Shown one piece after another: positions 14,934 to 35,938 of a DNA stretch of 39,341 nt. This DNA is from a virus (taxonomy: Duplodnaviria > Heunggongvirae > Uroviricota > Caudoviricetes): the IMG/VR virus record IMGVR_UViG_2901984674_000003; one strand, written 5' to 3'. The notes below the pieces were generated by a model. It was given only the letters and a program-made list of their open reading frames with translations. It had not been told where the DNA came from and ran no database searches. A program made the position numbers and the translations under genes. The number at the start of each line of letters is the position of its first letter. Within the stretch, counting starts at the first letter, position 1.

Positions 14934-17339
14934 CTATTCTTCGTCATCACGAATGGAATAGAACTTACCAGGGTTCTTTATAAGTTCGTTTACGTTATCC
15001 ACTTCTGGTAAAGCAAAGTCTTCTTCAGTAAATTCTCGCTTGATTTCTTTCTTGTAATCACGTAATTCTTTGCCTTCATTTACAGCTTCTAACAATCCTG
15101 TGAAATCACTTAGCTCCATGCCATTCTTAGCTGTGATTTCCTTGTCACCACTTTGTTTGTAGTAATTTGCAATCCATAAAGCAAGCTTTGGAGAAAAGTA
15201 GATCTTTTGCTTTAGCAATGTTTCTAAATCAAGCACTGTGTTATACCAGTCGTTGTGCTTAGTTCTAACCCTTCTTTTTGGATCTTCTAAGATGGTACGT
15301 AACTGTCTGGCTTGCTTGTAGTATGGTAGCTTGACCTTAAGCATGTTTCTAGTACCATAAATAACAAAGCCTTCAACGTCGGTACGATTTTGCTGTTCAT
15401 CTATAAACTTACGTAATTCATCTGGAGTATTGAATTTTTGATACTCTAGGTTAAGATGTTTATCCATTAAGTCTAGTCTAACCTTACCTTCTTTGTCATT
15501 ATTAACGATCGCCAAAGGCATGATAATGTAGTCATATAAAGGGTAATCCTTGCTGTAATCAATGATATGTTCGTTGTACTTGACGTTAATAACTTCAAAC
15601 AACACTGAGGTATTACGGTTGTCTGGATCTTTGTAAAAGCTAGTTAAGTTCTCACCTAAATTTTTGCCGATACCGTAAGGATAAAGTTTCTTGTCAAACA
15701 TAAGGGCTTTACCAATTAACATACTATGAAAGCTGCTTCCACCCTTAGATAAAAAGTGAATATTACCATCTTTTTTATCGTAAAAAGCAATCATTAAAAA
15801 TCCGTTCCACTTAGTGTAGACTCTAGCTGGATAACCAACATTTTCTAAGGTTGACGTAGGTGTTTGTCCTTCGTTGAAGAACTTCTTAAACCCACGGCCA
15901 ACAATCTTGTCCCCACGAGTGAACAAACCTCTAGCGTTAGTTGTAGTTGGAGTCCAACGATTGTTGTTAAACACTTCTCTAGTAAAGTTGTGAGCTATAA
16001 TGCCATCACCAATGTCAACGTCACGTATATCTTCGTCATTGAATACATCTTCTACAAAGTTAGATACATTTGTTCTGGCTACGGTTGAAATAGATGTCTT
16101 TACACCATTTTCAGCTAACTTTAGTTCATAGTATGGGACAAAATCATCATTACATAGGTTAATGATATTGTTATTATCGTCTGGCTTGTACGCAAATACA
16201 TTACGATGCCCATGAATTTGTTCTACTGGATCTTCAACGTTTGTTGTAGCGTTAGCATAAGTCTTATCAACATCACGATCATAAGGTGAGCCAGTTTCTT
16301 TAAGGTTAATACCTAAAGTAAACACACTTTCATTTAACAGATGTAACGGCTTATCCATAGCTACAGGTTCAATGCCAGCATGACTAACCAAGTACTTCTT
16401 GCCATTAAAGCTAAAAGTAAGGTAATCTTCCAAACGCTTAGTATAGTTGGATAGCAGTTCATCTAAATCGTCTTTAGAACCTACTTCATCTAATAATGTA
16501 GGATAGGTTATACGTCCAAATTGGCCGCTAAAATTACCTGTTGTTAGGTATTCTTCAATGCGTTGTTCGTGGTTGCCACGTAAGAAAAAGATGTTATTTC
16601 CCTTTAAAACATTAGCAAACTTCAACGTTTCTAAATTTTTAGTACCACGGTCTAGCAAATCTCCGCAGAAAACGTAAGCTGTACCTCGTTTATGGTTAGC
16701 AAAGATTTCGTTTAAACCATCATACTCACCGTGAACATCACCGATAACCTTAATACAATCAAACTTATCACTAAAATCTGGATATTCAATTGTATTAAGG
16801 CTTTCTTCTAACCTTGAAACACAATCTTTAGGATCTAGCACCTTGACCCATTGTGGAATTTGCTTTTTATGTGCGTACCAACGGTTAACATACCTTGTAA
16901 TAACTTCTCTACCAACTTGACGTGTACGTTTGGAATCACGCTTGACAAACTCGTCGATTAAAGCGTTCATGCTACCATATTTCTTGGCTTGGTAGCTCAT
17001 AAAATCAACTAAGTAAACCTTATACCTATACTTAATCCTAAGCTTATTGAATTGTCTAAACGCTCCACGATACAACATAGTGCTATCAACAAATGTTGTT
17101 TCACCGTTTTGCATACGTCTTTCTACAGCTTGATAAATTGTGTCCCATACCAAGTGTTCATTGTTTTGATTAATTTCGTGTTTATGTAGCTTTTCACTTG
17201 TATCTAGTGCTAAGCTATAGTTACCAAAAAGCGTTCGTACCTTATCAGCAACGATTGTATAATCTTCTAAATTATGTTCTTTAATAAATGTAGACTTCCC
17301 ACTAGCAGGAGATCCCATTGTTAGATATAACTCTCGCAT
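14934..17339 (-). CDS. polynucleotide kinase - metallophosphoesterase - T4 Rnl1-like RNA ligase fusion (RNA repair enzyme)
   Basis: P-loop GSPASGKST; GDVHG/GDLLDRG/GNHE phosphoesterase motifs; ARGLF...KFFN...KWNG ligase motifs. Confidence 0.85.
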   Translation of the reverse strand: MRELYLTMGSPASGKSTFIKEHNLEDYTIVADKVRTLFGNYSLALDTSEKLHKHEINQNNEHLVWDTIYQAVERRMQNGETTFVDSTMLYRGAFRQFNKLRIKYRYKVYLVDFMSYQAKKYGSMNALIDEFVKRDSKRTRQVGREVITRYVNRWYAHKKQIPQWVKVLDPKDCVSRLEESLNTIEYPDFSDKFDCIKVIGDVHGEYDGLNEIFANHKRGTAYVFCGDLLDRGTKNLETLKFANVLKGNNIFFLRGNHEQRIEEYLTTGNFSGQFGRITYPTLLDEVGSKDDLDELLSNYTKRLEDYLTFSFNGKKYLVSHAGIEPVAMDKPLHLLNESVFTLGINLKETGSPYDRDVDKTYANATTNVEDPVEQIHGHRNVFAYKPDDNNNIINLCNDDFVPYYELKLAENGVKTSISTVARTNVSNFVEDVFNDEDIRDVDIGDGIIAHNFTREVFNNNRWTPTTTNARGLFTRGDKIVGRGFKKFFNEGQTPTSTLENVGYPARVYTKWNGFLMIAFYDKKDGNIHFLSKGGSSFHSMLIGKALMFDKKLYPYGIGKNLGENLTSFYKDPDNRNTSVLFEVINVKYNEHIIDYSKDYPLYDYIIMPLAIVNNDKEGKVRLDLMDKHLNLEYQKFNTPDELRKFIDEQQNRTDVEGFVIYGTRNMLKVKLPYYKQARQLRTILEDPKRRVRTKHNDWYNTVLDLETLLKQKIYFSPKLALWIANYYKQSGDKEITAKNGMELSDFTGLLEAVNEGKELRDYKKEIKREFTEEDFALPEVDNVNELIKNPGKFYSIRDDEE

Positions 17340-17363
17340 TAACCTCACTCCTTCGTTTGTGTA

Positions 17364-20378: not shown

Positions 20379-20404
20379 AAAGAAAAAATAAACAATATTA
20401 TTTG

Positions 20405-20432
20405 TTGTTTTTATCAACTTTTGTGTTATACT
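20405..20432 (+). promoter_or_regulatory. HU promoter
   Basis: TTGTTT-16 nt-TATACT with extended TG. Confidence 0.6.
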
Positions 20433-20506
20433 ACAGTTGTAAGCGAAACAAAAGCCTTAACATCAAGGGTTTCGCAAGTAAATTTAATTTTTTTAGAGGT
20501 GTTTTT

Positions 20507-20779
20507 ATGAACAAAACAGAATTAGTAGAAGTCGTTGCTAAAAAGATGGGTACAACTAAAAAAGAAGCAGAAGCAGCTGTTTCAGCATTTACAGAAACAG
20601 TTAAAGAAGCCTTAGCTGAAGGCAAAAAAGTACAATTAATTGGCTTTGGTAACTTTGAAGTACGTGAACGTGCAGCTCGCAAAGGTCGTAACCCACAAAC
20701 AGGCGAAGAAATTGATATTCCTGCAACTAAAGTACCTGCATTCAAACCAGGTAAAGGATTTAAAGATGTTGTAAAATAA
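20507..20779 (+). CDS. hup: DNA-binding protein HU (90 aa; start at MNKTEL)
   Basis: [32 protein letters not shown] signature; GAGGTG RBS. Confidence 0.97.
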
Positions 20780-20797: not shown

Positions 20798-20833
20798 AAA
20801 AAGAACATTCAAACTAGTGAATGTTCTTTTTTT
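20798..20833. terminator. bidirectional intrinsic terminator
   Basis: AAAGAACATTC/GAATGTTCTTT stem with A- and T-tracts between convergent genes. Confidence 0.85.
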
Positions 20834-20841
20834 CTATGCCT

Positions 20842-21873
20842 TTATTCGTAAGCCGAACGATCTTCTAAGTCTGGTACAAGCGTAAAGGCAAGATGTTCTG
20901 CCCTGTTGCTGTCAGCTCTACCAGCATTAGTAAAACAAGCCGTGATTCGTTCTGGGCTAACTTGGTTTAACAAAGCTTCCCACTTACTGCGTGGCAACTT
21001 GTTAGTCAAAGGATTATCAGCGTATGTTTCTAGGATTTTTTCAATGTGTAATTGATTGATCTTTTCGTGGTTAATAAATTGGTTTAACCTTGCGTTGATG
21101 TAATTGTTGTCAACAGCATCGGCTAACCAGTCTTGTACCGTAGCGTCAGAGTCTTCTTCAATCATGTTCAAATAATCATCTACAGCATCAGGTAGATCTT
21201 GTTCTACGATTGTATCAGACACGTTAGCTAAGCCAACCTTACCTAAATCACTAGGTGTTAGTCCAAGATCGGATAAAAAGTATTCTACCCTAGCGTCAAT
21301 CTTTTGTTTTATGCCTTTTCTTAACGCTGGGATAATCTTATTCTTTAAATCAACCCTTTTTTCTTCTTTAACCCACATCATAAACTCATCATCAACTTTG
21401 GTTAAGTCTAAGCGCATAATCTTTTCACCTGGATATTTAGCTTTGATGAACTCACGGTATAAGTCGTAAAGCGTAGCGGTATTACCAACCTTTTCTTCTA
21501 AGATGTCTAAAGCTCTTGAATTTATATAAAATCCAAGATTGCCCTCAATTTTCCATGAGTCAACATAAATGTATCTAATATCACGAGAGGCATCGCTTGA
21601 TATAAACTCTTCAAATAGCTCTGGTGCATTTTTAAAGATATGCCCTTTTTGTCCTTCTTTTCTAGCGAAGATGTGAACTTCGTTGTTCCAGTCGGAAATA
21701 TTCTTGTCTATGTGTTTGAGAATCATTGCTTGAACCTTACCATCAGAAATATTTAAGTTCTTTCCTTCAGCTAAATCACTAGTTAATTCATACAAGTAAT
21801 TTCTGATGATAGGCTTAACTTCAGACATCAAATCTAGGTTTTTCTTATATTCTTCTTGCGATGTAACAGCCAT
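20842..21873 (-). CDS. acidic helical protein, paralogue family B
   Basis: C-terminal EKINQ.HIEK...PLT.KLPRSKW.ALL..VSPERI.ACF...FTLVPDLED almost identical to 21929-23023. Confidence 0.85.
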   Translation of the reverse strand: MAVTSQEEYKKNLDLMSEVKPIIRNYLYELTSDLAEGKNLNISDGKVQAMILKHIDKNISDWNNEVHIFARKEGQKGHIFKNAPELFEEFISSDASRDIRYIYVDSWKIEGNLGFYINSRALDILEEKVGNTATLYDLYREFIKAKYPGEKIMRLDLTKVDDEFMMWVKEEKRVDLKNKIIPALRKGIKQKIDARVEYFLSDLGLTPSDLGKVGLANVSDTIVEQDLPDAVDDYLNMIEEDSDATVQDWLADAVDNNYINARLNQFINHEKINQLHIEKILETYADNPLTNKLPRSKWEALLNQVSPERITACFTNAGRADSNRAEHLAFTLVPDLEDRSAYE

Positions 21874-21928
21874 TTTTAATCAACAACCTTTCTTGTTTTA
21901 AAGAAATCTAACTTGCGACTCTTTGTGT

Positions 21929-23023
21929 TTAGGCGATGTCTTCGAGGTCTGGAACTAAGGTAAAGCCTAATTGTTCAACCTTGTTGGCATCGACGTTACC
22001 ACTCACGTTAAAGCAAGCTTCAATTCGTTCTGGACTAACCCTAGAGCTTAACAAAGCAGCCCACTTACTGCGTGGCAACTTGCTAGTTAATGGATCCTCA
22101 GTCATTGCTTCAACTAGTTTTTCAATGTGTACTTGATTGATCTTTTCTTTGTTTACAAATTGCTTTAGCCTTTCGTCAATGTATCTGTTGTCATACACTT
22201 CTTCTATCCAATCAGGTACGTCATAACCATCTTCTGAACTACTGTTAATAGCTTCATCTTCTGCGTCCAAATAATCTTCAATTGCATCTGGTAAATCAGC
22301 GTTAACCATTTCGGCTACCACATTGCCTAAGCCAACTCTGCCTAAATCGCTAGAGCTTAATCTAAGGCTTGCTAAGAAGTCACCTAGTCTAGCGTTAACC
22401 TTTTCTTCCATGCCTTTTTTAAGGTAAGGCTTAACGTATGAATTAACCCTGGATTGTCCATTTTCTTTTTCCCATTGCATAAATTCATCAGTAATCTTGC
22501 TTAGATCAACCTTTAAAATCTTTTCGCTAGGATAAGCTTCATCAAGAAATTTATGATAATCGCTATTTGATACATTACCTAAATTTTCAACTAAAGTTTT
22601 TCTTGCTTTTTCGTGCATATAATACTCAATGTTACCCTCTAATTTAAGCCTGGACTTAAAGTCAGAAATAAGGGCTTGTCCATTTCCTTCACTCAAAAAT
22701 GAATTAAATAATTCTTCAGGGCTTCCTAGAAACTCTAACTTTTTATCCAGTGAATTAGCAAAAAACATTAGCCCATCATGCCATTGTTCAAAATTCTTAG
22801 TAACAACCTTAATAATAACTTCTTGAACAAGTTTATCATAAGGGTTGACACCACGTTGTTGTTCAAAGTCAATTGCTAGTTCAATTAGGTGACTACGTGC
22901 AATTGCTTCAGCTTTTGGCACAAGTGTTGTATTACTTTTGCCGTTAAATTGCATACTAGCCCAGCCTAATCCGTTAACATGTTCTTTTCCTATACGTTCT
23001 GTAACACTTGACATAACTATCAT
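21929..23023 (-). CDS. acidic helical protein, paralogue family B
   Basis: Tandem paralogue of 20842-21873. Confidence 0.85.
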   Translation of the reverse strand: MIVMSSVTERIGKEHVNGLGWASMQFNGKSNTTLVPKAEAIARSHLIELAIDFEQQRGVNPYDKLVQEVIIKVVTKNFEQWHDGLMFFANSLDKKLEFLGSPEELFNSFLSEGNGQALISDFKSRLKLEGNIEYYMHEKARKTLVENLGNVSNSDYHKFLDEAYPSEKILKVDLSKITDEFMQWEKENGQSRVNSYVKPYLKKGMEEKVNARLGDFLASLRLSSSDLGRVGLGNVVAEMVNADLPDAIEDYLDAEDEAINSSSEDGYDVPDWIEEVYDNRYIDERLKQFVNKEKINQVHIEKLVEAMTEDPLTSKLPRSKWAALLSSRVSPERIEACFNVSGNVDANKVEQLGFTLVPDLEDIA

Positions 23024-23035
23024 ATCCTTTCTTAA

Positions 23036-23071
23036 AATGGCGGTGTTACAACCCTTTGCACCACCGCCATT
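23036..23071 (-). terminator. GC-rich hairpin between family B genes (terminator or processing site)
   Basis: AATGGCGGTG/CACCGCCATT 10-bp stem; short T-tract. Confidence 0.55.
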
Positions 23072-23076
23072 AATTC

Positions 23077-24378
23077 TTAAATCATCTGTTCTTGCAAATA
23101 TCTAGTAAAAATTCTTTCAACCATTTGATCGCCTAGTTTAGCAAAGTTGTATAACTCACTTTCGTATTTAGCTACGACATTTCTAAGTACAGCGTTGATG
23201 TCATCGTTGCTATAACCAAAATCTCTAGCTGTATCAACAAATCTGTTTAAATAATACTCACGAGCTTTATTAGCGTCATACAAGGATAAAATCAAGTTGA
23301 TTAAATCTATTTCATTTAGGTAATCATCAAAGCTTGCGTCAGGGTTATCTTTTAAGTAGTCCTTAAAGTCAGCGTACATTTCAGACATCTTGCTATCAAC
23401 GAAGTTTTCCATGCTGGCACGATTGCGTAGCACATTGTATGCTTGTGGATAGCCCTTGCTTAGCTCAACGACTTTGTTTAACTTACTCTTAAGGTAACTT
23501 TGAACGTGAACGTAAAAGCCACCTTCTTTGATGTCTTCCAACACGTTTTCTGTTAGTTCTTTTTGACCTTTAACAAGATCTTCAAAAAACGTTTCTAACA
23601 CAGTTTCAGCATCGTATTCAACATACACATTTAAGATGTTTGCGTTATTGTTAGCCTTGCTTATCACTTGGTTAACATCATCGCTAGGATAGCCCATGTA
23701 AGACAAGTCTTGCTTTAAGCGTTCGAGAAGCTTGTTCTTTTCTTCTTCTTGCTTGCCTTCAAAAGCTCTTCTAAAGAGTGGATAAATAGTTCTGTCGATG
23801 TTTTCCATGAAGTAATCTTCAACGTGATAATTAGGCTTAGCCTTAGCTGTATCTAAGTAGTCTTGATAAAAACCATCAAAATTATCATCAATCCAGCGTT
23901 GAGCAAAACTTTGTGCAACCGTAGCTGTCAAAAGTGAATTTTGATCTTTGCTTACAGTTTCAACGAAACTACCAATATACTCACTGCCAGCCTTTTTAAA
24001 AACATCTTTAGCTACCTTTTGATTATCTATCATATCACGGTTGGAAAAATCAGGTACAGGCACGCTGTTGACTTGATTCCAAAATTGATAGCTTACCGTA
24101 AAGTTATTAAAAAAGCTTTTTTCTACGTCTTGACCTGCAAAGTTTGCATCATCATATTGGTTAACGTAGATGTCATAAAACTCATTAACTGCAGGTTTTA
24201 AGGCTTGAATACACTCTTTTTTAAACTTGTTAGCTTTGACGTAATTGTCATAGTAGCTAATATCGTTGCAACCAAGCTCTTTTAGATAGTTATCAATGCT
24301 CTGTAAAACCAAATCATTTTCTGCATAATTTGCGGTTGCGTCCTTAAGTGCATTAATCATGTTTTGATCTTTGATCAT
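23077..24378 (-). CDS. acidic helical protein, paralogue family B, with an internal duplication
   Basis: W/FID...Y.D(F/Y).D..K...(F/V).(D/E)Y module occurs twice and matches the C-terminus of 24398-28756. Confidence 0.85.
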   Translation of the reverse strand: MIKDQNMINALKDATANYAENDLVLQSIDNYLKELGCNDISYYDNYVKANKFKKECIQALKPAVNEFYDIYVNQYDDANFAGQDVEKSFFNNFTVSYQFWNQVNSVPVPDFSNRDMIDNQKVAKDVFKKAGSEYIGSFVETVSKDQNSLLTATVAQSFAQRWIDDNFDGFYQDYLDTAKAKPNYHVEDYFMENIDRTIYPLFRRAFEGKQEEEKNKLLERLKQDLSYMGYPSDDVNQVISKANNNANILNVYVEYDAETVLETFFEDLVKGQKELTENVLEDIKEGGFYVHVQSYLKSKLNKVVELSKGYPQAYNVLRNRASMENFVDSKMSEMYADFKDYLKDNPDASFDDYLNEIDLINLILSLYDANKAREYYLNRFVDTARDFGYSNDDINAVLRNVVAKYESELYNFAKLGDQMVERIFTRYLQEQMI

Positions 24379-24397
24379 CGCATACAGTCCTTTCTTG

Positions 24398-27300
24398 CTA
24401 TTGAATTACAGTTATTTCAGGCTCAAAGGGGTGTTTCTCAAAGATTTGTTCAACTACTGAATCACTTGAGTTCTTTCTTTCAGCTGAAGCAAACGACCAT
24501 AATTCTAAGTCTGTCATTTCTTTAGCTACACGTACACATTCAATACTAGAATGACCTAAGCTAGAGGCTTTATCCATGAATTTTTGAACCCATGTATCTT
24601 TGGCAGCACTAGCGTCAAAACTATTAGCAACTACTTTGTTGAAATCAACTTCTTTTAGATATTCTTCAAAAGTTAAGGCAGAATCTTCTTTTTTAGCATC
24701 AACAAAATCTTCGTACAAGCTATCAGCATTAGCATCAATCCATTGATCCATCTTAGCTTTGTTCAACATTACGTTAAATGAATAATCAAAGCCCATACTG
24801 TTTTCATCAATAACACCATTAGCAAATGTTTCAAAGCTTGCATGAGCTGTTTTAAGCAAAGCACCTTTATTGCTTACTTCTTCATCTGTTACCCATTGTG
24901 GCATTGGCACTGAGTTAAAGGCATTTTCAAACTCTGAACTGTTGATAAAGTCGTTTAAGAATGTATCTTCAACATCATCAACGAAAACATTATCATAAGT
25001 TTTAGCAAACTCTTTTTGAGCCTTGTTTACAACTGGTAATAAGCGTCCGCAATAATCTAGGAACTTGCGATATTCCTTAGTTATATCTGGCTTATACCCT
25101 TTTTCTTCTGCTTTACGGCGAACGTAGTTTTCAATTCTAAGATCAAAGCTATTACCATCTGGGAAGAAGTTAGCTAAATGAGATCTTATTTCTTCTTTTC
25201 TTTCTGCTAGTTTATCTTCAAAGTCATCTTTCTTTAAGGCAAAGAACAATTCACGTTTGTCTTTAGCATCAGCAAATGATTTATAATTGTTAGCTACAAA
25301 GTTTGTTACCTCATTTTGATAATAGTAAGTTGTTAGCCCTTTTTCAGTGTATTCAATTCTAACTTGTCCTTGCATGATTTCATCTACAATTGACTCTAAA
25401 TCATTTAAGTCAGCATCGTTGTCTTGAAGTAGTAACAAGTTAATTAGTAAGTCTGATTGTTTGCGTTGATATAAAGCTTGCTTAAATTCGACGAAGTGTT
25501 TATTGATTATCTTAAGTACGGTAGCTCTATCGACTTCTTTTGGCTTGTTATCATCTGAAACATACATAAACGTATGGTCTAACGCTGGAATCCTATCAGC
25601 AATATCTTCTGCTGTGTAATCTTCTGTTTCAAGTTGGAATCTTTCACTATGGAAGTTTATATCTTCAAGTAAATCAAGTACTCTTTGTTTCTCAGTAGCA
25701 TTACCTGTTCGATACAAGTTAGCTACCCTAGATAAATCTTTATCGTTTAAGCCATAAGTAATTTTTTGTGAAATTTCAGAAATTGACATTTCTGGGTTCT
25801 TTAAATACTCAACTACATCACTTTCATTTACTTCATTATCTTCAAAGTAAGGCATTGTGTTTATTGCTTGCTTTAAGTGCATATCAAAGTGAGAGTCAGT
25901 CATAAGTAATCTTGCAAACTCATTAGCATCACTGCTTAATTCTCTTTCAACGTATTCATCTTCAAAAAGATCCTTAGCATTTGATAGGTTTGGTTCAACA
26001 CTAAGTAAAAACTTCTTAAGCATCTCAACGTGTTCTTGATTACTAGGATCATAACCACGTTCTTTAGCTGTTTCTAACAGTTTATCGTAAACATCGCTAT
26101 AATCAGTTACCCTACTTGGTAATGAATTATTTAAAACGTCTTTTACTATACGAACTCTAGCCATACGTCTTTCTTCGTGTTCATCAGCAACTAATTCAAA
26201 GAATGTTGTTGTCTTATCTTTAGACTTAGTAAAGGCTTCTTTGTTTGCTTCAACTACTTTTTTAACGTCATTTAAACCATAAGTATCAGTGAAGTTATCT
26301 TCTTTTGGATAAGTAAGAGTAGTTTGTCCGTCCATTACTTGATCGGCTAATAGTTCAATGTCAATTGACTCGTCTTCTACATAATCGTAATCATCTTTTT
26401 GATCCTTCCATAGATCATGCAAAATTTCTGTCAAGTCATCAAATGAAAGAGTCATAAATCTACTACGTTTGATGTTATTAAGAACAAACTGTTTATTGTT
26501 CTTAAAGAATGTTGCAAGACTAGCAATTATAGACTCTATTTCACCGTTCCATTCAGCGGAATCAAGAGTAGCTTTCTTCACTTGTTCGATTAACTCTGAT
26601 TGGTGGCTTTGGTAAATCATTAATGCAGCAATGGCTGGTGTTTCAGGAATACTTTGTCCTTGATTGCTATTAGCGTTGTCGTAAATTTCCTTAGCTTTTT
26701 CTTCAATAAAATCAGAAATAATTGCTTCACCTTTTTGCAAGAATCTAGCGAAGAAATCATCATTCAAAAGGTCAAAATCAAAGCCATAACTTTGTTGAGT
26801 AACTTTGTTAAAGATGTTAAATGAATACTTATCTTTTTCTAGTTCTTGTTTTAAGTCATGCCAACGTTCTTGCAATAGTTCGTTTCGATCTTGCTTGTCT
26901 AATTGTTCTTTCCAATCTGGAGTTCTTTCAGCAATGAACTTATCCAAATCCTTTTGGTAAACCTTAGCCTTTTGCCAGTCAGCTAATTTAGAAACTTTTC
27001 CTTGCCAGTAACGAACGTTAACTTTATTGTATGGTTCGGTTTGACGAACTTCTTGTAATAACTCTGTCTTTACTTCTTCTAACAATAAAGCAAATGGGAA
27101 ATGTTCTTCGTAGTATTGACTGATAACTGCACGGTGGGAATCAAGGTAACTTCTAACTACATCATCAACATTGTTTTCATTAATATCTGTAGCTTGTGCC
27201 ATAATTGCTCCAGTTAATAAGTCTGTTTCATCAGTAATAAATTTAGTCTTTAGATCCATAGTTTTAGCATAAGCACTTTCACTGTCGATTAAGTTTTCTG

Positions 27301-28756
27301 CTAAAAATTCCTTCCAAACGTCATCTGAAAGCTTGTCTAAACGAGAAACAACTGCCCCACTTACAAGTGAGAATAATTCATTGTTATCTTTGTTATCAGC
27401 TTTCTTATCACTTTCAACTCTAAGCAAGTTCTTAGATAATTCATCAATGATTGCTTTATCGTGAGTTGAGTTATTGTAGCGATATAAGCTCAATAAGTTT
27501 TCTGCGCCTGTTTGGCTTGCAATTCCATCACGGTATTTATCAACTACGTTATGAGCGATGTCTTCAGCGTCTTTTAAGAGTTCGCTTGGGTTAACTCCAC
27601 GAAAATCATCACTAACATTTTCAACAGCTCTTTGTGCGTAAACATCAAAAGCAACGTTGTTATCTTCAAAACGTACAAGCAATAGTTTCTTGATTATATC
27701 AGCAAATTCAGCGTTATATCGTGTTAGGATTTCGTTTGATGTAATTTCTTTATTAGCATACAAGCGTAAGTCATCATCGTCTAAGAAAGTCTTGCTTCCA
27801 CTGCTTAATGAAATACCTAATTCACCAAATAATTTCTTGATTGTTGTGGCTCTTGAATAATCGCTTAATTCATCAATACCTATATCTTCTGCACTAACTT
27901 TAGCTAACTTGTCATTAATCATAGCGATAATTGATGCAAAGTTAGCTGCTGTTTCAGAAGTTATTTGATATACTCTTGCTTCTTTGCTTTGGATTTCATC
28001 AAAGTTGTATACAAAGGTTAAATCATCACTGCCATTTACGTTCTTGAAGAAATCCATTCCGTATTTCTTTATAGCTGAAAATACTTTTTTATCAGCAGCT
28101 TTGCCTGCGTATGATGCACTACCTTGAGCTTCAATACCTTTGATTGTATAAACAACTTTTACTGATGAATCTTTAGTGCGAACTGAAACATTTTTAACTG
28201 CTACAGTTGCTACAAACTCAATACCACCTAAAGTTGTAGTAAAGGTCTTTTTACCTTGATTTTTAATAGCACGAGCAACCATATCTTTGAAGATTGTTTC
28301 TTCGTCATCTTTTTCAAGCATTTCTTTAAGTTGTTTTTCATCGCCTACACCTAAATATAAGCGTACTACTTCTTGTCGTGCTTTGTTTGTTAAACCATCA
28401 AAATTAACGTTTCTAGCGTACTTGTTTAAAGTAATTTGAGCTTCGTTAGGATAATATTTTTCCATGTAATTACTTAAAGCGTTCCAGTTACTAATACTGC
28501 TTACATGAGCCTTAACGAAAGCTAAATCATCAGCTCTAGTTAATTCTGTTGGATCAACGTAGATGTTATAGTTATCACCAAAGATTTCAATCATTGAAAC
28601 TTTGTTATTGCTTGAATAGCTGTTTGTACGTCCTCTAGCACCAAAAATACTTGCAAATGTTTGGCTATCAGTTACACCTTCTGTTTCACGTAGTTCGCCT
28701 GTGCGATGTCCTTTACCTGTTCCAGCATGGCTAATCTTACCTACGTATAAAGTCAT
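24398..28756 (-). CDS. 1452-aa acidic helical protein with internal repeats, family B
   Basis: Long uninterrupted ORF with GAAAGAAGTGA RBS; no signal peptide, TM or recognisable catalytic motif. Confidence 0.9.
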   Translation of the reverse strand: MTLYVGKISHAGTGKGHRTGELRETEGVTDSQTFASIFGARGRTNSYSSNNKVSMIEIFGDNYNIYVDPTELTRADDLAFVKAHVSSISNWNALSNYMEKYYPNEAQITLNKYARNVNFDGLTNKARQEVVRLYLGVGDEKQLKEMLEKDDEETIFKDMVARAIKNQGKKTFTTTLGGIEFVATVAVKNVSVRTKDSSVKVVYTIKGIEAQGSASYAGKAADKKVFSAIKKYGMDFFKNVNGSDDLTFVYNFDEIQSKEARVYQITSETAANFASIIAMINDKLAKVSAEDIGIDELSDYSRATTIKKLFGELGISLSSGSKTFLDDDDLRLYANKEITSNEILTRYNAEFADIIKKLLLVRFEDNNVAFDVYAQRAVENVSDDFRGVNPSELLKDAEDIAHNVVDKYRDGIASQTGAENLLSLYRYNNSTHDKAIIDELSKNLLRVESDKKADNKDNNELFSLVSGAVVSRLDKLSDDVWKEFLAENLIDSESAYAKTMDLKTKFITDETDLLTGAIMAQATDINENNVDDVVRSYLDSHRAVISQYYEEHFPFALLLEEVKTELLQEVRQTEPYNKVNVRYWQGKVSKLADWQKAKVYQKDLDKFIAERTPDWKEQLDKQDRNELLQERWHDLKQELEKDKYSFNIFNKVTQQSYGFDFDLLNDDFFARFLQKGEAIISDFIEEKAKEIYDNANSNQGQSIPETPAIAALMIYQSHQSELIEQVKKATLDSAEWNGEIESIIASLATFFKNNKQFVLNNIKRSRFMTLSFDDLTEILHDLWKDQKDDYDYVEDESIDIELLADQVMDGQTTLTYPKEDNFTDTYGLNDVKKVVEANKEAFTKSKDKTTTFFELVADEHEERRMARVRIVKDVLNNSLPSRVTDYSDVYDKLLETAKERGYDPSNQEHVEMLKKFLLSVEPNLSNAKDLFEDEYVERELSSDANEFARLLMTDSHFDMHLKQAINTMPYFEDNEVNESDVVEYLKNPEMSISEISQKITYGLNDKDLSRVANLYRTGNATEKQRVLDLLEDINFHSERFQLETEDYTAEDIADRIPALDHTFMYVSDDNKPKEVDRATVLKIINKHFVEFKQALYQRKQSDLLINLLLLQDNDADLNDLESIVDEIMQGQVRIEYTEKGLTTYYYQNEVTNFVANNYKSFADAKDKRELFFALKKDDFEDKLAERKEEIRSHLANFFPDGNSFDLRIENYVRRKAEEKGYKPDITKEYRKFLDYCGRLLPVVNKAQKEFAKTYDNVFVDDVEDTFLNDFINSSEFENAFNSVPMPQWVTDEEVSNKGALLKTAHASFETFANGVIDENSMGFDYSFNVMLNKAKMDQWIDANADSLYEDFVDAKKEDSALTFEEYLKEVDFNKVVANSFDASAAKDTWVQKFMDKASSLGHSSIECVRVAKEMTDLELWSFASAERKNSSDSVVEQIFEKHPFEPEITVIQ

Positions 28757-28799: not shown

Positions 28800-28922
28800 A
28801 AAAAAAGTACCGCAAATAAATACAAAAATGTAAATATTTACGGTACTTATTGCTTTATTTAAGCATTGTACGAGGAGTATTCACTGGCATAACCAGTCAC
28901 CCACGACCCCTCAACAGGTTAA
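28800..28922 (-). promoter_or_regulatory. structured 5' leader/sRNA ending in a terminator upstream of the 1452-aa gene
   Basis: Promoter TTGTAT(28955-28950)-17-TATAAT(28932-28927) with extended TG; GAGGGGT/ACTCCTC stem; AAGTACCG/CGGTACTT hairpin plus T-tract. Confidence 0.55.
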
Positions 28923-28975
28923 TATAATTATAACATGAAATTCTTTGCAATACAATGCGAGGGCTTTTCTTTGTA

Positions 28976-29256
28976 ATAAAAAATCCCCACTGCAAGAAGC
29001 AATGAGGACTGGTTTTGAAAAACGATTAATCATATGCTATACTAATCTTGTATAGAGATGATAGCTAGAATGTTAGCTACAACTAAGATTAATCTAAGCG
29101 TCCATTCTATACGTACTGCAATACGTATGTAGCAACGCTTTGAGCAAAAATCTGCTAATTAACATCACCAACTTCTGTATCGCAAATTTCCTAGAATGAT
29201 ACATTAGTTATTATAGCTTATAAAAGCCTTTAAATCAACGATTTGAGGGCTTTTTA
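28976..29256. ncRNA. overlapping sense/antisense small-transcript pair
   Basis: Plus promoter TTGAAA-17-TATACT (29015-29043) with terminator 29222-29256; minus promoter TTGATT-17-TATAAT (29238-29210) with terminator 28976-29008. Confidence 0.55.
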
Positions 29257-29263
29257 TTATGCA

Positions 29264-29291
29264 AAAAAAGATAGGTATTTCTACCTATCTT
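29264..29291 (-). terminator. intrinsic terminator
   Basis: AAGATAGGTA/TACCTATCTT stem plus T7. Confidence 0.8.
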
Positions 29292-29304
29292 CAACAGTAA
29301 TTAA

Positions 29305-29493
29305 CTATTTTTCTTTACGTTTGCCTAAAGCACCTAGTCCTAACAAGGATCCTAGTCTAACTAGGACTGCACCAACAGTTGTACCCTTACTTTGCTTTTC
29401 GCCAGTTTGTGGTAACTCAGTAGTTGCAAACTTAGGTTGTGCTTTAGCTTGTGGCTTAGCATTAGCCTTAGCTTCAACTTTAGGAGCTACTTG
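29305..29493 (-). pseudogene. C-terminal remnant of an LPXTG surface protein
   Basis: Reads QVAPKVEAK...ELPQTGEKQSKGTTVGAVLVRLGSLLGLGALGKRKEK*; no in-frame start before the upstream stop at 29551-29553. Confidence 0.8.
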
Positions 29494-29503
29494 AAAATGA
29501 AAA

Positions 29504-29538
29504 AATAAAAATAGATCAGGTTTTGACCTATTTTTATT
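29504..29538 (-). terminator. intrinsic terminator after the recombinase-like gene
   Basis: AATAAAAATAG...CTATTTTTATT inverted repeat. Confidence 0.65.
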
Positions 29539-32350: not shown

Positions 32351-33892
32351 TTACCACCAGTTGTGTGCTTGCCAGAATTGCTTTGCTTTAACCCAAGTAC
32401 CATATCTATTCTTCATGTAACTTTGAGCTACACGATCTTGGTTTTCTTTAGATAGGTCACCGTTTAAATAGGATAAATCTAACTGATAAGCACCGTAATA
32501 TTTACCATTTCTAGCATTATAACGACCGCCAGATTCGTGTGCGATAATCCACTTTCTAGCACTGTCTTCGTCTGAACTTAAGCCACCAGTTGCATCGTCT
32601 GAACCACCTTTTTTAAGGCCGTTCTTGATTGTTTCTAGTGGATCAATCCAACCACCACTTGAATCCCACGAATGAGAAACAGCTTGATCAAATGGTAGCT
32701 TTGTTATACCAATATGAACGTGTTCTGTATCACGAATACCAATTACATCGCCTGTTTTTACAACATCATCTACTTTAACCTTAATATTACTCTTTGAACT
32801 TGCAAATTCCTGATAAACAATAGATAAATTGTCATCACCTTTAGTTACAACATACCACTCTAATCCACCAGCATAATCTACTTTGACAACCTTGCCACCA
32901 TGGATTGCGTGAACTTCTTTACCTGGGTGATCGACTGAACCAAAGTCTAAGCCATCGTGATAACTATTAGGTCTCTGATTACCTGGATGAGTTCCGAATA
33001 GTTGAGCATCCATAAATGAACCTTCGCCAACGTCAGGGAAAGGCCAACCCCATGAACCACCAGGAGAAGCACTACTATCTTTTGAACAATCAGTATCATC
33101 ATCTTTAGAATCAGTAGTTGCTGTACCTACATCGCCAGCAATGTCATCAGCGTTATAGTATTGTGCATATCCAGCTTGAAATCCAGGTAAGTAATCTGCA
33201 ACATCAGCTGTGAAATATCCATGATTGTGCATTACGGTTAAATAATCTTCCATTTCCTTAGCACTAGCTTTTTTGGAGTTGCTGTCACTAGCTGATTTTA
33301 ATGCTTCTGGAACGGCTGGGAAAAGCCCACTGATATACGCTTCACCAAACACTTTATAGCTAGGGAAGTTCATATAGCTACCGTCACCTTCAGCGTGTCC
33401 TGAACCTAAAACTACACCTTTTTTAGCTAACCATTCAGGCGGTTGACCTGACAAACCACCTAAGTTATGAGCGTCGTTGTTTAAAGCAGGATTAGCACTT
33501 AAGTTAGCCCCTGATTCTTGTACCCATTGAGCATAAATCAAACCTGGGTCAATCTTAATGTTGTAAAGCTTTTCGCCAGCTTTGGCAACAGCTCGTGCTA
33601 ATTTTTTACCATTCTTTGTTCCAATTGGAGCTGGTGTGTTTTCGTCAAAGTCAACAGAAACATCTGTATGAACGTTTTTACCACCGCTTGCGTCAGCACC
33701 ACCACTACCTTCGCTACCGCCTGAGCCATCATCATCACCTGAGTCACTAGTTATTGTATAACAACCGTTATTTTGAAAGCCTGAGTCAAAAATAGAGTTG
33801 GCACTAGCTACTGCTGGATATATTAGTTGAATAATTAGTAAGGAAAGTGTTAATAGCGATGCTAAAATATTTATTTTCTTTGTAAAGTCCAC
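32351..33892 (-). CDS. conjugative peptidoglycan hydrolase: lysozyme-like, M23 peptidase and Apf/SLT-like domains
   Basis: N-terminal signal/TM; AQW..ESG...HNL.G; HDGLD and HVH M23 motifs; C-terminal ESGG.YNA.NG.Y.GAYQL...W..HNWW. Confidence 0.85.
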   Translation of the reverse strand: MDFTKKINILASLLTLSLLIIQLIYPAVASANSIFDSGFQNNGCYTITSDSGDDDGSGGSEGSGGADASGGKNVHTDVSVDFDENTPAPIGTKNGKKLARAVAKAGEKLYNIKIDPGLIYAQWVQESGANLSANPALNNDAHNLGGLSGQPPEWLAKKGVVLGSGHAEGDGSYMNFPSYKVFGEAYISGLFPAVPEALKSASDSNSKKASAKEMEDYLTVMHNHGYFTADVADYLPGFQAGYAQYYNADDIAGDVGTATTDSKDDDTDCSKDSSASPGGSWGWPFPDVGEGSFMDAQLFGTHPGNQRPNSYHDGLDFGSVDHPGKEVHAIHGGKVVKVDYAGGLEWYVVTKGDDNLSIVYQEFASSKSNIKVKVDDVVKTGDVIGIRDTEHVHIGITKLPFDQAVSHSWDSSGGWIDPLETIKNGLKKGGSDDATGGLSSDEDSARKWIIAHESGGRYNARNGKYYGAYQLDLSYLNGDLSKENQDRVAQSYMKNRYGTWVKAKQFWQAHNWW

Positions 33893-33914: not shown

Positions 33915-33941
33915 AAATAAGGAATAGTATCAACTATCCCC
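33915..33941 (-). terminator. intrinsic terminator inside the transfer region
   Basis: GGGGATAG/CTATTCCT stem followed by TATTTTTTT. Confidence 0.65.
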
Positions 33942-35938
33942 TACAAAATCAAATGAGTATCAATAACTGTTCCTAATAAATCCCTAGCTCTATACACGTA
34001 AAAGCGACTGTTTGCATTAGCTAATAATTCATCACGAACACGTTTAGATAATTCTTTGTTCCAAGAATAGTTAATATCTTTCAAACTATCAGGAGTTAAA
34101 CCACCCAAAACAACTAAGTCTTGCGTTGAGAGAGGGTAAATAAAACTGTTTAGAGTTTTGATATTCATTTCCTTGTTATCTCGTTCTTCCAAAGTTGTGA
34201 TTAAACCAATACCTTTTTCGTCCATCTTTTCACGATAAGGTTTTAAAATCCTTGGAGAAACTGTGACGCTATCTAAACCATGAATGACAATCATATCGCC
34301 TGGCATAGCTCTATTAGCAACATAAGATAAAGTGTTCAAGAACATTGCACCTTTAACAACACGGTTATTAGATAGTTTAGATAAATCGTAATAAATGTTG
34401 CGATCATAGTATGTGAACTTATCAGGTATGTTGGTCTTGGCATTGAATACTTGAGGGTATTGATTAACGGCTGTTTTTACTGCTCGTAACAAGAGTTGCG
34501 CTCTATCACCAGCGTTTTCACCAACTTTCCTTTCTCTAGCTACAACTGAGTCTAATTCCAAAACAAAGTCACCTATTGTTGGATAGTTTTGATGTTGTTC
34601 TGTAGCTAAAATTCGCCAAGCTCTAGTTGGTTCATTTTGTGGATCTAAGGTATAAATACCATTACCACCAGCACGTTTAATTACCCAGTCAATCAACTGT
34701 TCCTTTAACATGCCCCTGATGTTAGCGTATTGGTCTGAAGAAACAGCATTTTCACCAAGTAACATCATGATAATTTCAGTAACTTTTTCAAAGTTGTCAT
34801 TAGCGTCGACTTCAACGTTTTCTTTAGTACCGTATACTTCCAAAGTATTAAGCGTGTATTTTTGCATGTCTAAAACCTTAGAATTAGGTGCATGATAATC
34901 AAACGGAACTAGGTTGATGTGATGCGTTCTTTTACCGTTAACTAAATAGTTATCTTCGGCTATTACATGCGCCCATGCACTACCTGAACGGTTTGTTTCA
35001 ATTGGATATTCAAGTCCGTTCAAAGAATATCTAACGCTTGTACCACCAGTAATAACAACTGCATGTCTGATACCGTTAAAATCAATGATTGAGGAGTTGT
35101 TATACAAAAGCGATTCTAGGTCTTCGCCTACGTAAACTCCTTGTGGATCGACAAAGCCTGAACTTGGTAAAAACAAGCGACTAGCCGCAACCGACTCCAT
35201 ATCAGCGTTATGCCATTTGTTAGCCGAAATCTTATTAAACAAACTGAAAAGCTCTTCTTTTTGCTTAAAGATTTTACGTACAATCATAAAGCCAGGAATA
35301 CCGCTGTCTTTTTAGTTTTGTCTAAGTTCATCAACAGTTTTTTTCAACTGTTCTGGAGTATCAGCCCAAACTACAAGTGAAATGTCACTATCAACGATGT
35401 GTTCATTTTTAGCTAATTCATTAGTTAATTGAATATCTTCTAATTCAAGTCTTTTCTTTGAGTTTTCACGTTCGTCTGTTGACTCTTCAGAATTTAACAT
35501 GGTTACTTTTCTTGAATGTAGCTTTTTAGAAAAGATTTCATTTTCTGTACCTTTACTCATACCCTTTTCACGATAGGCAAAATAAATGTCCCCATCTTTA
35601 AGTTGTTGAGTTGGAATTAACTTTGTTAACCAACCAATAACTTCAGGGTTGTGAGTACCATATTGAACCAATACGTCAAACACTGAAACATAGCGTCCGT
35701 TGTATTCGTGAATATAACCATCAAATTCAACGTAACCTTTGTCTGATGTAAACCCAGGTTGACCGATAAATTTCTTTTTGCGAGCTTCAGCTATTTTTCT
35801 ACGTTGCTTAGCCCTTTTCTTTTCAGCCTTAGTCATCTTGTATTGAACTTCAGGCTTCTTAGCTTTTTTAGCCTTTGATTTTTTATTCCAAAACAAAATA
35901 CCACCGCCCTTTTCACTTATTAAAATTATCGTTTGCAT
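33941..35938 (-). pseudogene. VirB4-like protein split by one in-frame TAA (35312-35314), with degenerate Walker motifs
   Basis: ORFs 35312-35938 and 33941-35287 are in the same frame, separated by TAA plus 8 sense codons; VVITGGT and IVIHGLD sit where Walker A and B are expected. Confidence 0.55.

What the first reader, a model, noticed from the sequence alone, without database searches (positions are those of the whole stretch)
20842..28756. 8-kb array of four related, motif-less acidic helical proteins (343, 364, 433, 1452 aa) built from shuffled repeats
Seen: the 343/364-aa pair share a near-identical ~80-aa C-terminus. The 433-aa protein has a duplicated module (WIDDNFDGFYQDYLDTAK / FVDSKMSEMYADFKDYLK) that recurs at the 1452-aa C-terminus (WIDANADSLYEDFVDAKK) and more loosely in the pair (MVNADLPDAIEDYLDAE). 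The 1452-aa protein has its own internal repeat (QVMDGQTTLTY...ANKEAFTKSKDKTTTFF versus EIMQGQVRIEY...NNYKSFADAKDKRELFF; AKERGYDP versus AEEKGYKP). There is no signal peptide, TM or catalytic motif. The array has a dedicated promoter and leader and lies between the T4SS and the early genes. Known: large polyvalent/DarA-like proteins and acidic DNA mimics protect incoming DNA. Inference: a previously uncharacterised multi-subunit establishment or anti-defence system, such as T4SS-co-transferred DNA mimics or a scaffold or compartment shielding the plasmid.
Basis: partly seen in the sequence, partly recalled or inferred. Interest (0 to 1): 0.75.

Follow-up and report, generated by a model that had tools for sequence, protein, structure and literature searches.

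The report
Orphan modular protein operon on plasmid
A linear Ligilactobacillus salivarius megaplasmid carries a real four-gene operon of soluble, mildly acidic proteins that share building blocks and match no known protein family or structure. One block also occurs alone next to the DNA-transfer motor gene of related plasmids, so a role in plasmid transfer or establishment is the best guess, but it is untested.

Summary
The four ORFs (343, 364, 433 and 1452 aa, minus strand) are real and under purifying selection (dN/dS 0.05-0.17). They form one operon with its own promoter, a structured leader and a terminal terminator.

The claim that all four are related is only partly right.
- The 343/364 pair are full-length paralogs.
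- The 433-aa protein is two copies of a module found at the 1452-aa C-terminus.
- The 1452-aa protein has an internal repeat.
- The pair is linked to the giant protein by a different ~155-aa module, M.

An HMM built only from free-standing ~165-aa proteins of Enterococcus, Lactococcus, Pediococcus and Lactobacillus plasmids finds module M in three of the four proteins. In E. faecalis and L. lactis plasmids, that free-standing gene directly follows the FtsK/SpoIIIE coupling-ATPase gene.

The giant protein's N-terminal ~460 aa defines a family of 37 clusters. Among sequenced plasmids it occurs only in Ligilactobacillus. Confident AlphaFold models (pLDDT 89-94) have no convincing PDB or viral match. 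Pfam, NCBIfam, PHROGs and PADLOC gave nothing.

Charge density is too low for an Ocr/ArdA-type DNA mimic. The best guess (about 0.3) is that these are accessory proteins linked to the transfer machinery or to plasmid establishment.

First-stage readers flagged the same array in two other genomes.

The parts
28927..28955 (-). Putative operon promoter: TTGTAT, 17-nt spacer, TATAAT with an extended -10 TG
   Evidence: Read from the sequence. The scan lists an overlapping promoter-like site at 28950-28921. An upstream terminator-like hairpin at 29010-28975 closes the preceding unit.
28800..28912 (-). Structured 5' leader: a GAGGGGT/ACTCCTC hairpin (28912-28872), then a GTACCG...CGGTAC hairpin followed by T7 (28846-28800), about 45 nt before the ATG. 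It looks like an attenuator.
   Evidence: Sequence and RNAfold of the 169-nt leader, -56 kcal/mol. No shuffle control was run and function was not tested.
24398..28756 (-). 1452-aa protein (P0004): N-terminal family domain plus module M, two R repeats and a C-terminal W module
   Evidence: dN/dS is 0.17 against the ZSA5 plasmid ortholog.
27377..28756 (-). N-terminal family domain, aa 1-460. Layout: SH3-like small barrel (1-76), helices, an alpha/beta sandwich (about 150-295), then a helical bundle.
26897..27352 (-). Module M copy in P0004 (aa 469-620)
   Evidence: An HMM of five free-standing proteins from other genera gives E 4e-14. BLAST matches single and repeated copies in other family members.
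26045..26362 (-). Internal repeat R1 of P0004 (aa 799-904)
   Evidence: BLASTP against aa 1119-1223: 30% identity, E 2e-10.
25088..25402 (-). Internal repeat R2 of P0004 (aa 1119-1223)
24431..25066 (-). Module W at the P0004 C-terminus (aa 1231-1442)
   Evidence: Matches both halves of the 433-aa protein, E 1e-16 and 1e-11.
23077..24378 (-). 433-aa protein (P0003): two tandem W modules, at aa 51-192 (23803-24228) and aa 285-427 (23098-23526)
   Evidence: dN/dS is 0.15. Only close relatives were found, the most distant at 54% identity.
23034..23068 (-). GC-rich hairpin followed by ATTTT between the 433-aa and 364-aa genes. It may be a partial terminator.
   Evidence: Sequence and RNAfold, -20.9 kcal/mol. 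Function not tested.
21929..23023 (-). 364-aa protein (P0002): a unique N-terminal half plus module M (aa 197-323 = 22055-22435) and an acidic PDLED tail
   Evidence: The ortholog in plasmid NZ_CP123973.1 has a premature stop at codon 167.
20842..21873 (-). 343-aa protein (P0001): paralog of P0002, with module M at aa 177-307 (20953-21345)
   Evidence: dN/dS is 0.05.
20798..20833 (.). Hairpin flanked by an A-run and a T-run: a bidirectional terminator between the operon's end and the convergent HU gene
   Evidence: Sequence and RNAfold, -19.7 kcal/mol.

Best explanation
**What is shown**
This is one operon of lineage-specific, cytoplasmic, non-enzymatic-looking proteins on a linear, conjugative-type Ligilactobacillus salivarius megaplasmid. 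The proteins are assembled from a small set of helical modules.
- The giant protein combines an N-terminal domain that defines a family, one copy of module M, two R repeats and one W module.
- The three smaller proteins are free copies of these tail modules. The 433-aa protein is W plus W. The 343-aa and 364-aa proteins are each a unique N-terminal half plus M.
- Gene anatomy, module relationships, purifying selection, synteny and the absence of known domains or folds are all tool results.

**What is inferred**
- Module M proteins work together with the FtsK/SpoIIIE-type coupling ATPase of this Gram-positive transfer system. The basis is that in E. faecalis and L. lactis plasmids the free-standing M gene directly follows that ATPase gene.
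- They would act either as substrates or adaptors handed to the ATPase, or as factors needed at the end of transfer or early in establishment.
- In Ligilactobacillus the module has been fused to a large N-terminal domain and multiplied, giving a polyvalent-like set of accessory proteins.
- The T4CP association and any translocation or establishment role remain inference.
For: - **Operon.** Intergenic gaps are 19-55 nt, with a shared AAGAAAGG ribosome-binding context. There is a promoter and leader upstream and a terminator after the last gene.
- **Selection.** dN/dS is 0.05-0.17 against the 97%-identical plasmid NZ_CP123973.1.
- **Modules.**
- **Module M synteny.** The free-standing M gene starts 23 nt after the FtsK/SpoIIIE gene in E. 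faecalis NZ_CP141099.1 and 48 nt after it in L. lactis NZ_CP117407.1.
- **Shared slot.** The L. lactis transfer operon shares three proteins and the HU gene with the window. The array therefore occupies the slot of the free-standing M gene, between the hydrolase block and HU.
- **Plasmid type.** The replicon carries a cell-wall hydrolase, a large AAA ATPase, FtsK/SpoIIIE, a PgrA surface-exclusion protein, an adhesin and a sortase.
- **N-domain family.** Members have variable tails and repeated M modules, and two paralogs lie in tandem on an L. murinus plasmid.
Against: - The link to the T4CP is adjacency only, seen in two plasmid lineages.
- In this plasmid type the FtsK/SpoIIIE gene lies on the other arm, about 65 kb away in NZ_CP123973.1.
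- A Pediococcus plasmid carries module M with no transfer genes annotated in the 10 kb examined.
- No translocation signal is known for these systems.
- The 364-aa gene is broken in a close relative.
Confidence: 0.3

Rival explanations
1. The proteins are DNA-mimic anti-restriction proteins of the Ocr/ArdA kind. Their acidic helical surfaces would imitate DNA and soak up restriction or other DNA-binding defence proteins in the recipient.
For: - All four are acidic, with pI 4.6-4.9.
- Some free-standing module M proteins are strongly acidic, at -0.15 to -0.22 net charge per residue. They are about the size of ArdA as I recall it.
- The genes lie just downstream of transfer genes.
Against: - Charge density here is only -0.06 to -0.08 per residue, matched by several unrelated ORFs in the window.
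- The E. faecalis free-standing copy is only -0.08.
- There is no ArdA or other Pfam match.
Confidence: 0.12
2. This is a polymorphic effector or competition locus. A conserved N-terminal delivery domain would carry variable C-terminal effector tails, and the downstream genes would be spare tails or immunity-like partners used against rival plasmids or cells.
For: - The N-domain is conserved and always N-terminal, while the tails vary from 770 to 1880 aa in total length.
- Two paralogs lie in tandem on one L. murinus plasmid.
- The downstream genes repeat tail modules, as orphan cassettes do.
Against: - No toxin, nuclease, peptidase or other enzymatic domain is found in any of 35 members.
- The tails are under purifying, not diversifying, selection.
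- Each downstream gene has its own start codon and ribosome-binding site and encodes a complete protein.
- The N-domain does not resemble LXG or other known trafficking domains.
Confidence: 0.1
3. The proteins are a maintenance factor for the linear replicon, for example a telomere-associated, nucleoid-associated or partition scaffold working with the adjacent HU protein.
For: - The hosts are linear or hairpin-ended plasmids. NZ_CP123973.1 is recorded as linear, and pLMP1046 was shown to be linear (PMC4165912).
- In E. faecalis the free-standing M gene lies about 1 kb from the centre of a perfect palindrome that looks like a hairpin end.
- An HU gene is a conserved neighbour.
Against: - Acidic proteins are unlikely to bind DNA directly.
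- The array is about 48-56 kb from the end of NZ_CP123973.1.
Confidence: 0.1
4. The proteins are cargo unrelated to plasmid biology, for example an undescribed defence system or a host-adaptation function.
For: - The plasmid carries many accessory systems: TnpB/IscB, toxin-antitoxin pairs, RNA repair and adhesins.
- The family is restricted to a narrow host range.
Against: - There is no PADLOC match.
- No NTPase, nuclease or sensor domain is present.
- Module M keeps a conserved position in transfer operons across genera.
Confidence: 0.08

Closest known systems
Polyvalent proteins of conjugative elements and phages (Iyer, Burroughs and Aravind 2017; cited from memory, not read here)
   Same: Very large multi-domain proteins encoded near transfer genes of mobile elements. 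They are built by shuffling modules that also occur as free-standing small proteins.
   Different: Polyvalent proteins are recognised by fused known enzymatic or anti-defence domains and catalogued LPD domains. No Pfam domain of any kind was found in the four proteins or in 35 family members.
ArdA / Ocr DNA-mimic anti-restriction proteins
   Same: Acidic, non-enzymatic proteins of mobile elements. Some free-standing module M proteins have a comparable size and charge.
   Different: There is no sequence match. The predicted architecture is a helical bundle. Charge density in this operon is about a third of that of the classic mimics as I recall them.
P1 DarA/DarB-type co-delivered protective proteins
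   Same: Large orphan proteins encoded as a small operon and proposed to protect incoming DNA.
   Different: Those are packed in a phage capsid. No homology was detected in PHROGs or the phage collection. No delivery route has been shown here.
Coupling-protein-associated adaptors and substrates of type IV secretion (such as VirE1/VirE2 and IcmS/IcmW; from general knowledge)
   Same: Small acidic helical proteins encoded beside or functionally tied to the coupling ATPase, and large substrates that act in the recipient.
   Different: Those belong to Gram-negative systems and are not homologous. The only evidence here is gene adjacency.
pELF-type enterococcal linear plasmid tra operon (PMC13492992)
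   Same: A linear Lactobacillales plasmid with an FtsK-type transfer ATPase inside an operon made mostly of orphan genes.
   Different: As tabulated in the paper, pELF2 has a 458-aa ATPase and twelve small ORFs, with no giant protein. I did not compare the sequences directly.

Membership tests
Polyvalent proteins (LPD-containing) | Presence of catalogued LPD or enzymatic/anti-defence domains (Pfam models) | tested here: not met
   Pfam scans of the four proteins and of 35 family members found no domain at E<=1e-3, apart from one stray BrxC hit in one member.
Polyvalent proteins (LPD-containing) | Large modular protein of a conjugative element whose modules also occur free-standing | tested here: met
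   Module M occurs fused, repeated and free-standing. Module W occurs both fused and as the 433-aa protein.
ArdA / Ocr DNA mimics | Sequence or profile match to ArdA (Pfam) or to an Ocr-like family | tested here: not met
   No hit in Pfam or PHROGs for the four proteins or for free-standing module M proteins.
ArdA / Ocr DNA mimics | Very high negative charge density arranged like the DNA backbone | tested here: inconclusive
   Net charge is -0.06 to -0.08 per residue here and -0.08 to -0.22 in free-standing M proteins. Surface charge geometry was not analysed.
Conjugative relaxase (MOBQ-like N-terminus) | Invariant catalytic tyrosine near the N-terminus plus a histidine triad | tested here: not met
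   Tyr4 is replaced by Phe in three of 35 members, and no conserved His triad is present. There is no relaxase Pfam hit.
Known anti-phage defence systems (PADLOC) | Match to any PADLOC model | tested here: not met
   No hit at E<=0.01.
Any solved fold (N-terminal domain 1-300 and 1-700) | Structural match well above background | tested here: inconclusive
T4CP-associated accessory protein | Conserved adjacency to the coupling ATPase gene | tested here: inconclusive
   Met for the free-standing module M gene in E. faecalis and L. lactis. Not met in this plasmid type, where the FtsK/SpoIIIE gene is on the other arm.
T4CP-associated accessory protein | Physical interaction with, or translocation by, the coupling protein | not testable with these tools
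   Needs multimer modelling or bench assays.

The most novel reading that the evidence does not exclude
Module M and the N-domain family would be a new class of proteins transferred or used by the FtsK/SpoIIIE-type conjugation systems of Lactobacillales linear plasmids. They would be built on folds not yet seen in solved structures, and would protect or organise the incoming plasmid in the recipient by a mechanism unlike known DNA mimics or polyvalent enzymes.
Probability: 0.15. Interest if true: 0.75.

Novelty: new variant of a known kind. Interest (0 to 1): 0.45.

Why it matters
How linear plasmids of lactic acid bacteria and enterococci transfer is poorly understood, and the enterococcal ones spread vancomycin and linezolid resistance. 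MOB-suite types every plasmid examined here as non-mobilizable, although they carry transfer-type genes.

A domain that keeps a fixed place next to the coupling ATPase across four genera, and that has expanded into an 8-kb operon in Ligilactobacillus, is a concrete and testable handle on that biology. The confidently modelled N-terminal domain has no structural neighbour, so it is also a reasonable target for structure determination.

If deleting the genes has no effect, the locus is simply one more orphan plasmid operon.

Tried and rejected
**Ideas rejected**
- Phage origin. The RNA ligase, PD-(D/E)XK nuclease and M23 'tail' hits, plus an IMG/VR record classed as viral, first suggested a phage. 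The annotated relative instead has RepA/RepB, ParM/ParA, FtsK/SpoIIIE, PgrA, an adhesin and a sortase, and no capsid or terminase gene is annotated. There is no match in the phage collection.
- Novel relaxase. The N-terminus MTLYVGKISH recalls MOBQ N-termini. I rejected this because Tyr4 is Phe in three members, there is no His triad, and no Pfam hit.
- HK97-like capsid fold, suggested by the long beta-hairpin plus long helix. Neither Foldseek nor VIA supports it.
- Direct relationship between the 343/364 pair and the 433-aa protein. Not detected. Module M against the 433-aa protein is weak: E 0.011 at 4% probability, and E 2e-4 at 44% probability with a larger profile.

**Searches that found nothing useful**
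- ESM Atlas.
- PDB sequence and profile searches.
- The search for related loci in genome, viral and metagenome collections. Only two contigs turned up, for one distant member, with an uninformative context.

- The window's own assembly is not held, and relatives cannot be drawn for a virus record.
The 343-aa, 364-aa and 433-aa proteins and residues 700-1452 were not modelled.
Full report
**Replicon and context**

All ORFs of at least 80 aa in the region lie on the minus strand. The 7.9-kb stretch is 97.1% identical to positions 47817-55727 of Ligilactobacillus salivarius ZSA5 plasmid unnamed2. That record, NZ_CP123973.1, is 166.6 kb and is recorded as linear.

That plasmid carries the following genes:
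- replication and partition: RepA, RepB, DnaB, ParM and ParA;
- transfer-type genes: a sortase, a 955-aa AAA ATPase, an M23/lysozyme-type hydrolase and an FtsK/SpoIIIE protein;
- surface proteins: a PgrA surface-exclusion protein and an isopeptide adhesin.

It is therefore a conjugative-type megaplasmid and not a phage. IMG/VR nevertheless holds a near-identical 93-kb record classed as viral. L. salivarius linear megaplasmids have been demonstrated experimentally (PMC4165912).

Upstream of the array lie the hydrolase (32351-33892) and several small ORFs. Three of these have homologs in the transfer operon of an L. lactis plasmid. Downstream, on the opposite strand, is an HU gene. After it come a PD-(D/E)XK nuclease and a kinase-phosphatase-RNA ligase fusion.

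**The genes are real and form one operon**

The four ORFs are separated by 19, 53 and 55 nt. Each start codon is preceded by a purine-rich ribosome-binding site, AAGAAAGG in three of the four.

Signals read from the sequence, in minus-strand order:
- a terminator-like hairpin at 29010-28975, which closes the upstream unit;
- a promoter at 28955-28927, TTGTAT-17-TATAAT with an extended -10 TG;
- two leader hairpins, the second (28846-28800) followed by seven T about 45 nt before the ATG;
- after the last stop codon, a hairpin flanked by A and T runs (20833-20798), facing the convergent HU gene.

These are sequence readings only, not evidence of function.

Against the ZSA5 orthologs, dN/dS is 0.05 for the 343-aa gene, 0.15 for the 433-aa gene and 0.17 for the 1452-aa gene. 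The ZSA5 ortholog of the 364-aa gene aligns without gaps but has a stop at codon 167. One of the two paralogs can therefore be lost.

**How the four proteins are related**

- The 343-aa and 364-aa proteins are paralogs along their whole length: 42% identity, E 1e-93.
- Residues 51-192 and 285-427 of the 433-aa protein both match residues 1231-1442 of the giant protein, at E 1e-11 and 1e-16. I call this module W.
- The giant protein has an internal repeat, 799-904 versus 1119-1223, at E 2e-10. I call this module R.
- The pair shows no detectable relationship to the 433-aa protein.

A third module does link the pair to the giant protein. Residues about 465-625 of the giant protein recur once to three times in other family members, and also stand alone as proteins of about 165 aa. 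I call this module M.

To test the link independently, I built an HMM from five free-standing proteins only. They come from E. faecalis, L. lactis, P. pentosaceus and L. johnsonii plasmids and one metagenomic cluster. The HMM hits the following:
- the giant protein at 469-620, E 4e-14;
- the 343-aa protein at 177-307, E 7e-12;
- the 364-aa protein at 197-323, E 4e-8.

Every other ORF in the window scores E above 0.09, and the 433-aa protein is not hit. Profile-profile comparison agrees, at 73% probability and E 3e-5. It aligns the conserved TEPYG..SR.YW motif with DPLTSKLPRSKW.

The actual connections run through the giant protein, and they use two different modules.

**The N-terminal domain**

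A full HMMER scan of 1.84 billion representatives with residues 1-700 found 37 clusters, 33 of them at E below 1e-10. The match nearly always starts at residue 1, and total lengths range from 108 to 1880 aa.

Nearly invariant positions include M1, Y4, G6, G20, T29, F38, G39, K52, D68, R162, G178, G212 and Y425. No member has any Pfam domain.

Among PLSDB plasmids the domain occurs only in Ligilactobacillus:
- this plasmid type;
- the pLMP1046 type, as an 1866-aa protein with at least two M copies;
- an L. murinus plasmid with two tandem paralogs of 1341 and 1152 aa.

AlphaFold2 with the 35-sequence alignment gave confident models: pLDDT 88.8 and pTM 0.72 for residues 1-700, and pLDDT 93.9 and pTM 0.85 for residues 1-300. 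The predicted layout is a small five-stranded barrel (1-76), a helical region, a three-stranded sheet packed by long helices (about 150-295), and then helical bundles.

Fold searches gave the following:
- Foldseek against PDB and BFVD found nothing at E<=1e-3.

All of these lie within the tool's stated background, so no fold is assigned. I do not claim a new fold, because AlphaFold DB could not be searched.

**What points to function**

The only functional lead is position. In E. faecalis NZ_CP141099.1 the free-standing M gene starts 23 nt after the FtsK/SpoIIIE gene, at the end of a transfer-type operon. In L. lactis NZ_CP117407.1 it starts 48 nt after that gene and is followed a few genes later by HU.

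The L. lactis operon shares three proteins and the HU gene with the window. The L. salivarius array therefore sits where the free-standing M gene sits in those plasmids. In this plasmid type, however, the FtsK/SpoIIIE gene is on the other arm.

The E. faecalis record contains a 7.3-kb perfect palindrome with no spacer. Its centre is about 1 kb beyond the M gene. This looks like a hairpin end read through by the assembler.

My best reading, at about 0.3, is that module M proteins are accessory factors tied to the coupling ATPase or to the first steps after transfer, and that Ligilactobacillus plasmids have expanded them into a polyvalent-like operon.

**What argues against the more specific ideas**

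- DNA mimicry. The four proteins carry -0.06 to -0.08 net charge per residue, no more than several unrelated ORFs in the window. Some free-standing M proteins do reach -0.15 to -0.22.
- Defence system. There is no PADLOC hit.
- Relaxase. Tyr4 is Phe in three members, and there is no His triad.
- Toxin or effector locus. No enzymatic domain is found in any member, and the tails are under purifying selection.
- The pELF-type enterococcal tra system (PMC13492992) is organised differently and offers no counterpart.

**Limits**

- The window's own assembly is not held.
I therefore have neither expression data nor contexts for most family members.
The three smaller proteins and residues 700-1452 remain unmodelled.
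- First-stage readers noted the same array in two other genomes. I treat those notes as leads, not as evidence.

**Verdict**

This is a real, conserved, orphan operon. Its modular build is confirmed, with corrections to which modules link which proteins. It has a plausible but unproven tie to the transfer machinery. It is moderately interesting as a handle on Gram-positive linear-plasmid conjugation, and it does not show a new mechanism.

Noticed in passing
L014:3185-17700 (E. faecalis NZ_CP141099.1): A 7258-nt perfect inverted repeat with 0 nt between the arms. Transfer genes are mirrored on both sides. The 'circular' record probably contains a hairpin end of a linear plasmid read through by the assembler.
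   Followed up: partly
L008:9011-16386 (L. lactis NZ_CP117407.1): The same mirrored gene order is seen: GTP pyrophosphokinase, bacteriocin, HU, pepG1 and two hypothetical genes, then the reverse. This suggests another hairpin-type end next to the transfer operon.
   Followed up: no
L001:21084-22178 (NZ_CP123973.1): The ortholog of the 364-aa gene has a premature stop at codon 167 and is annotated as two short CDSs.
   Followed up: yes
L001:28284-30108 (NZ_CP123973.1), corresponding to window ~28960-29530: In the relative, an IS200/IS605 tnpA plus transposase pair is inserted in the intergenic region upstream of the operon. The window lacks this insertion.
   Followed up: no
window 33941-35938: Two ORFs of 448 and 208 aa correspond to a single 651-aa CDS in NZ_CP123973.1. 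The gene may be split in this window, or may carry a sequencing error. The 448-aa part is 48% identical to a 618-aa transfer-operon protein of L. lactis.
   Followed up: partly
window 20402-20779 (+): An HU-family gene converges on the operon's end. It is 51% identical to the HU of the L. lactis plasmid, so HU is a conserved neighbour of the transfer region.
   Followed up: partly
window 14934-17348 (-): An 804-aa fusion of P-loop kinase, metallophosphatase and T4-type RNA ligase 1 domains. It looks like a Pnkp/Rnl-like RNA repair enzyme.
   Followed up: no
G001 (IMG/VR record, 93 kb): A near-identical plasmid segment is catalogued as a virus with 86% CheckV completeness. The annotated relative has plasmid replication, partition and transfer genes and no annotated capsid or terminase gene.
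   Followed up: partly
L006:3829-15459 (L. murinus NZ_CP040853.1): Two tandem N-domain family paralogs (1341 and 1152 aa) with a 538-aa orphan between them. A site-specific DNA methyltransferase gene lies about 1.5 kb upstream.
   Followed up: partly
cluster of P0016: One partial member of this Ligilactobacillus-type family is labelled Campylobacter jejuni in NCBI. This is probably contamination of that assembly.
   Followed up: no
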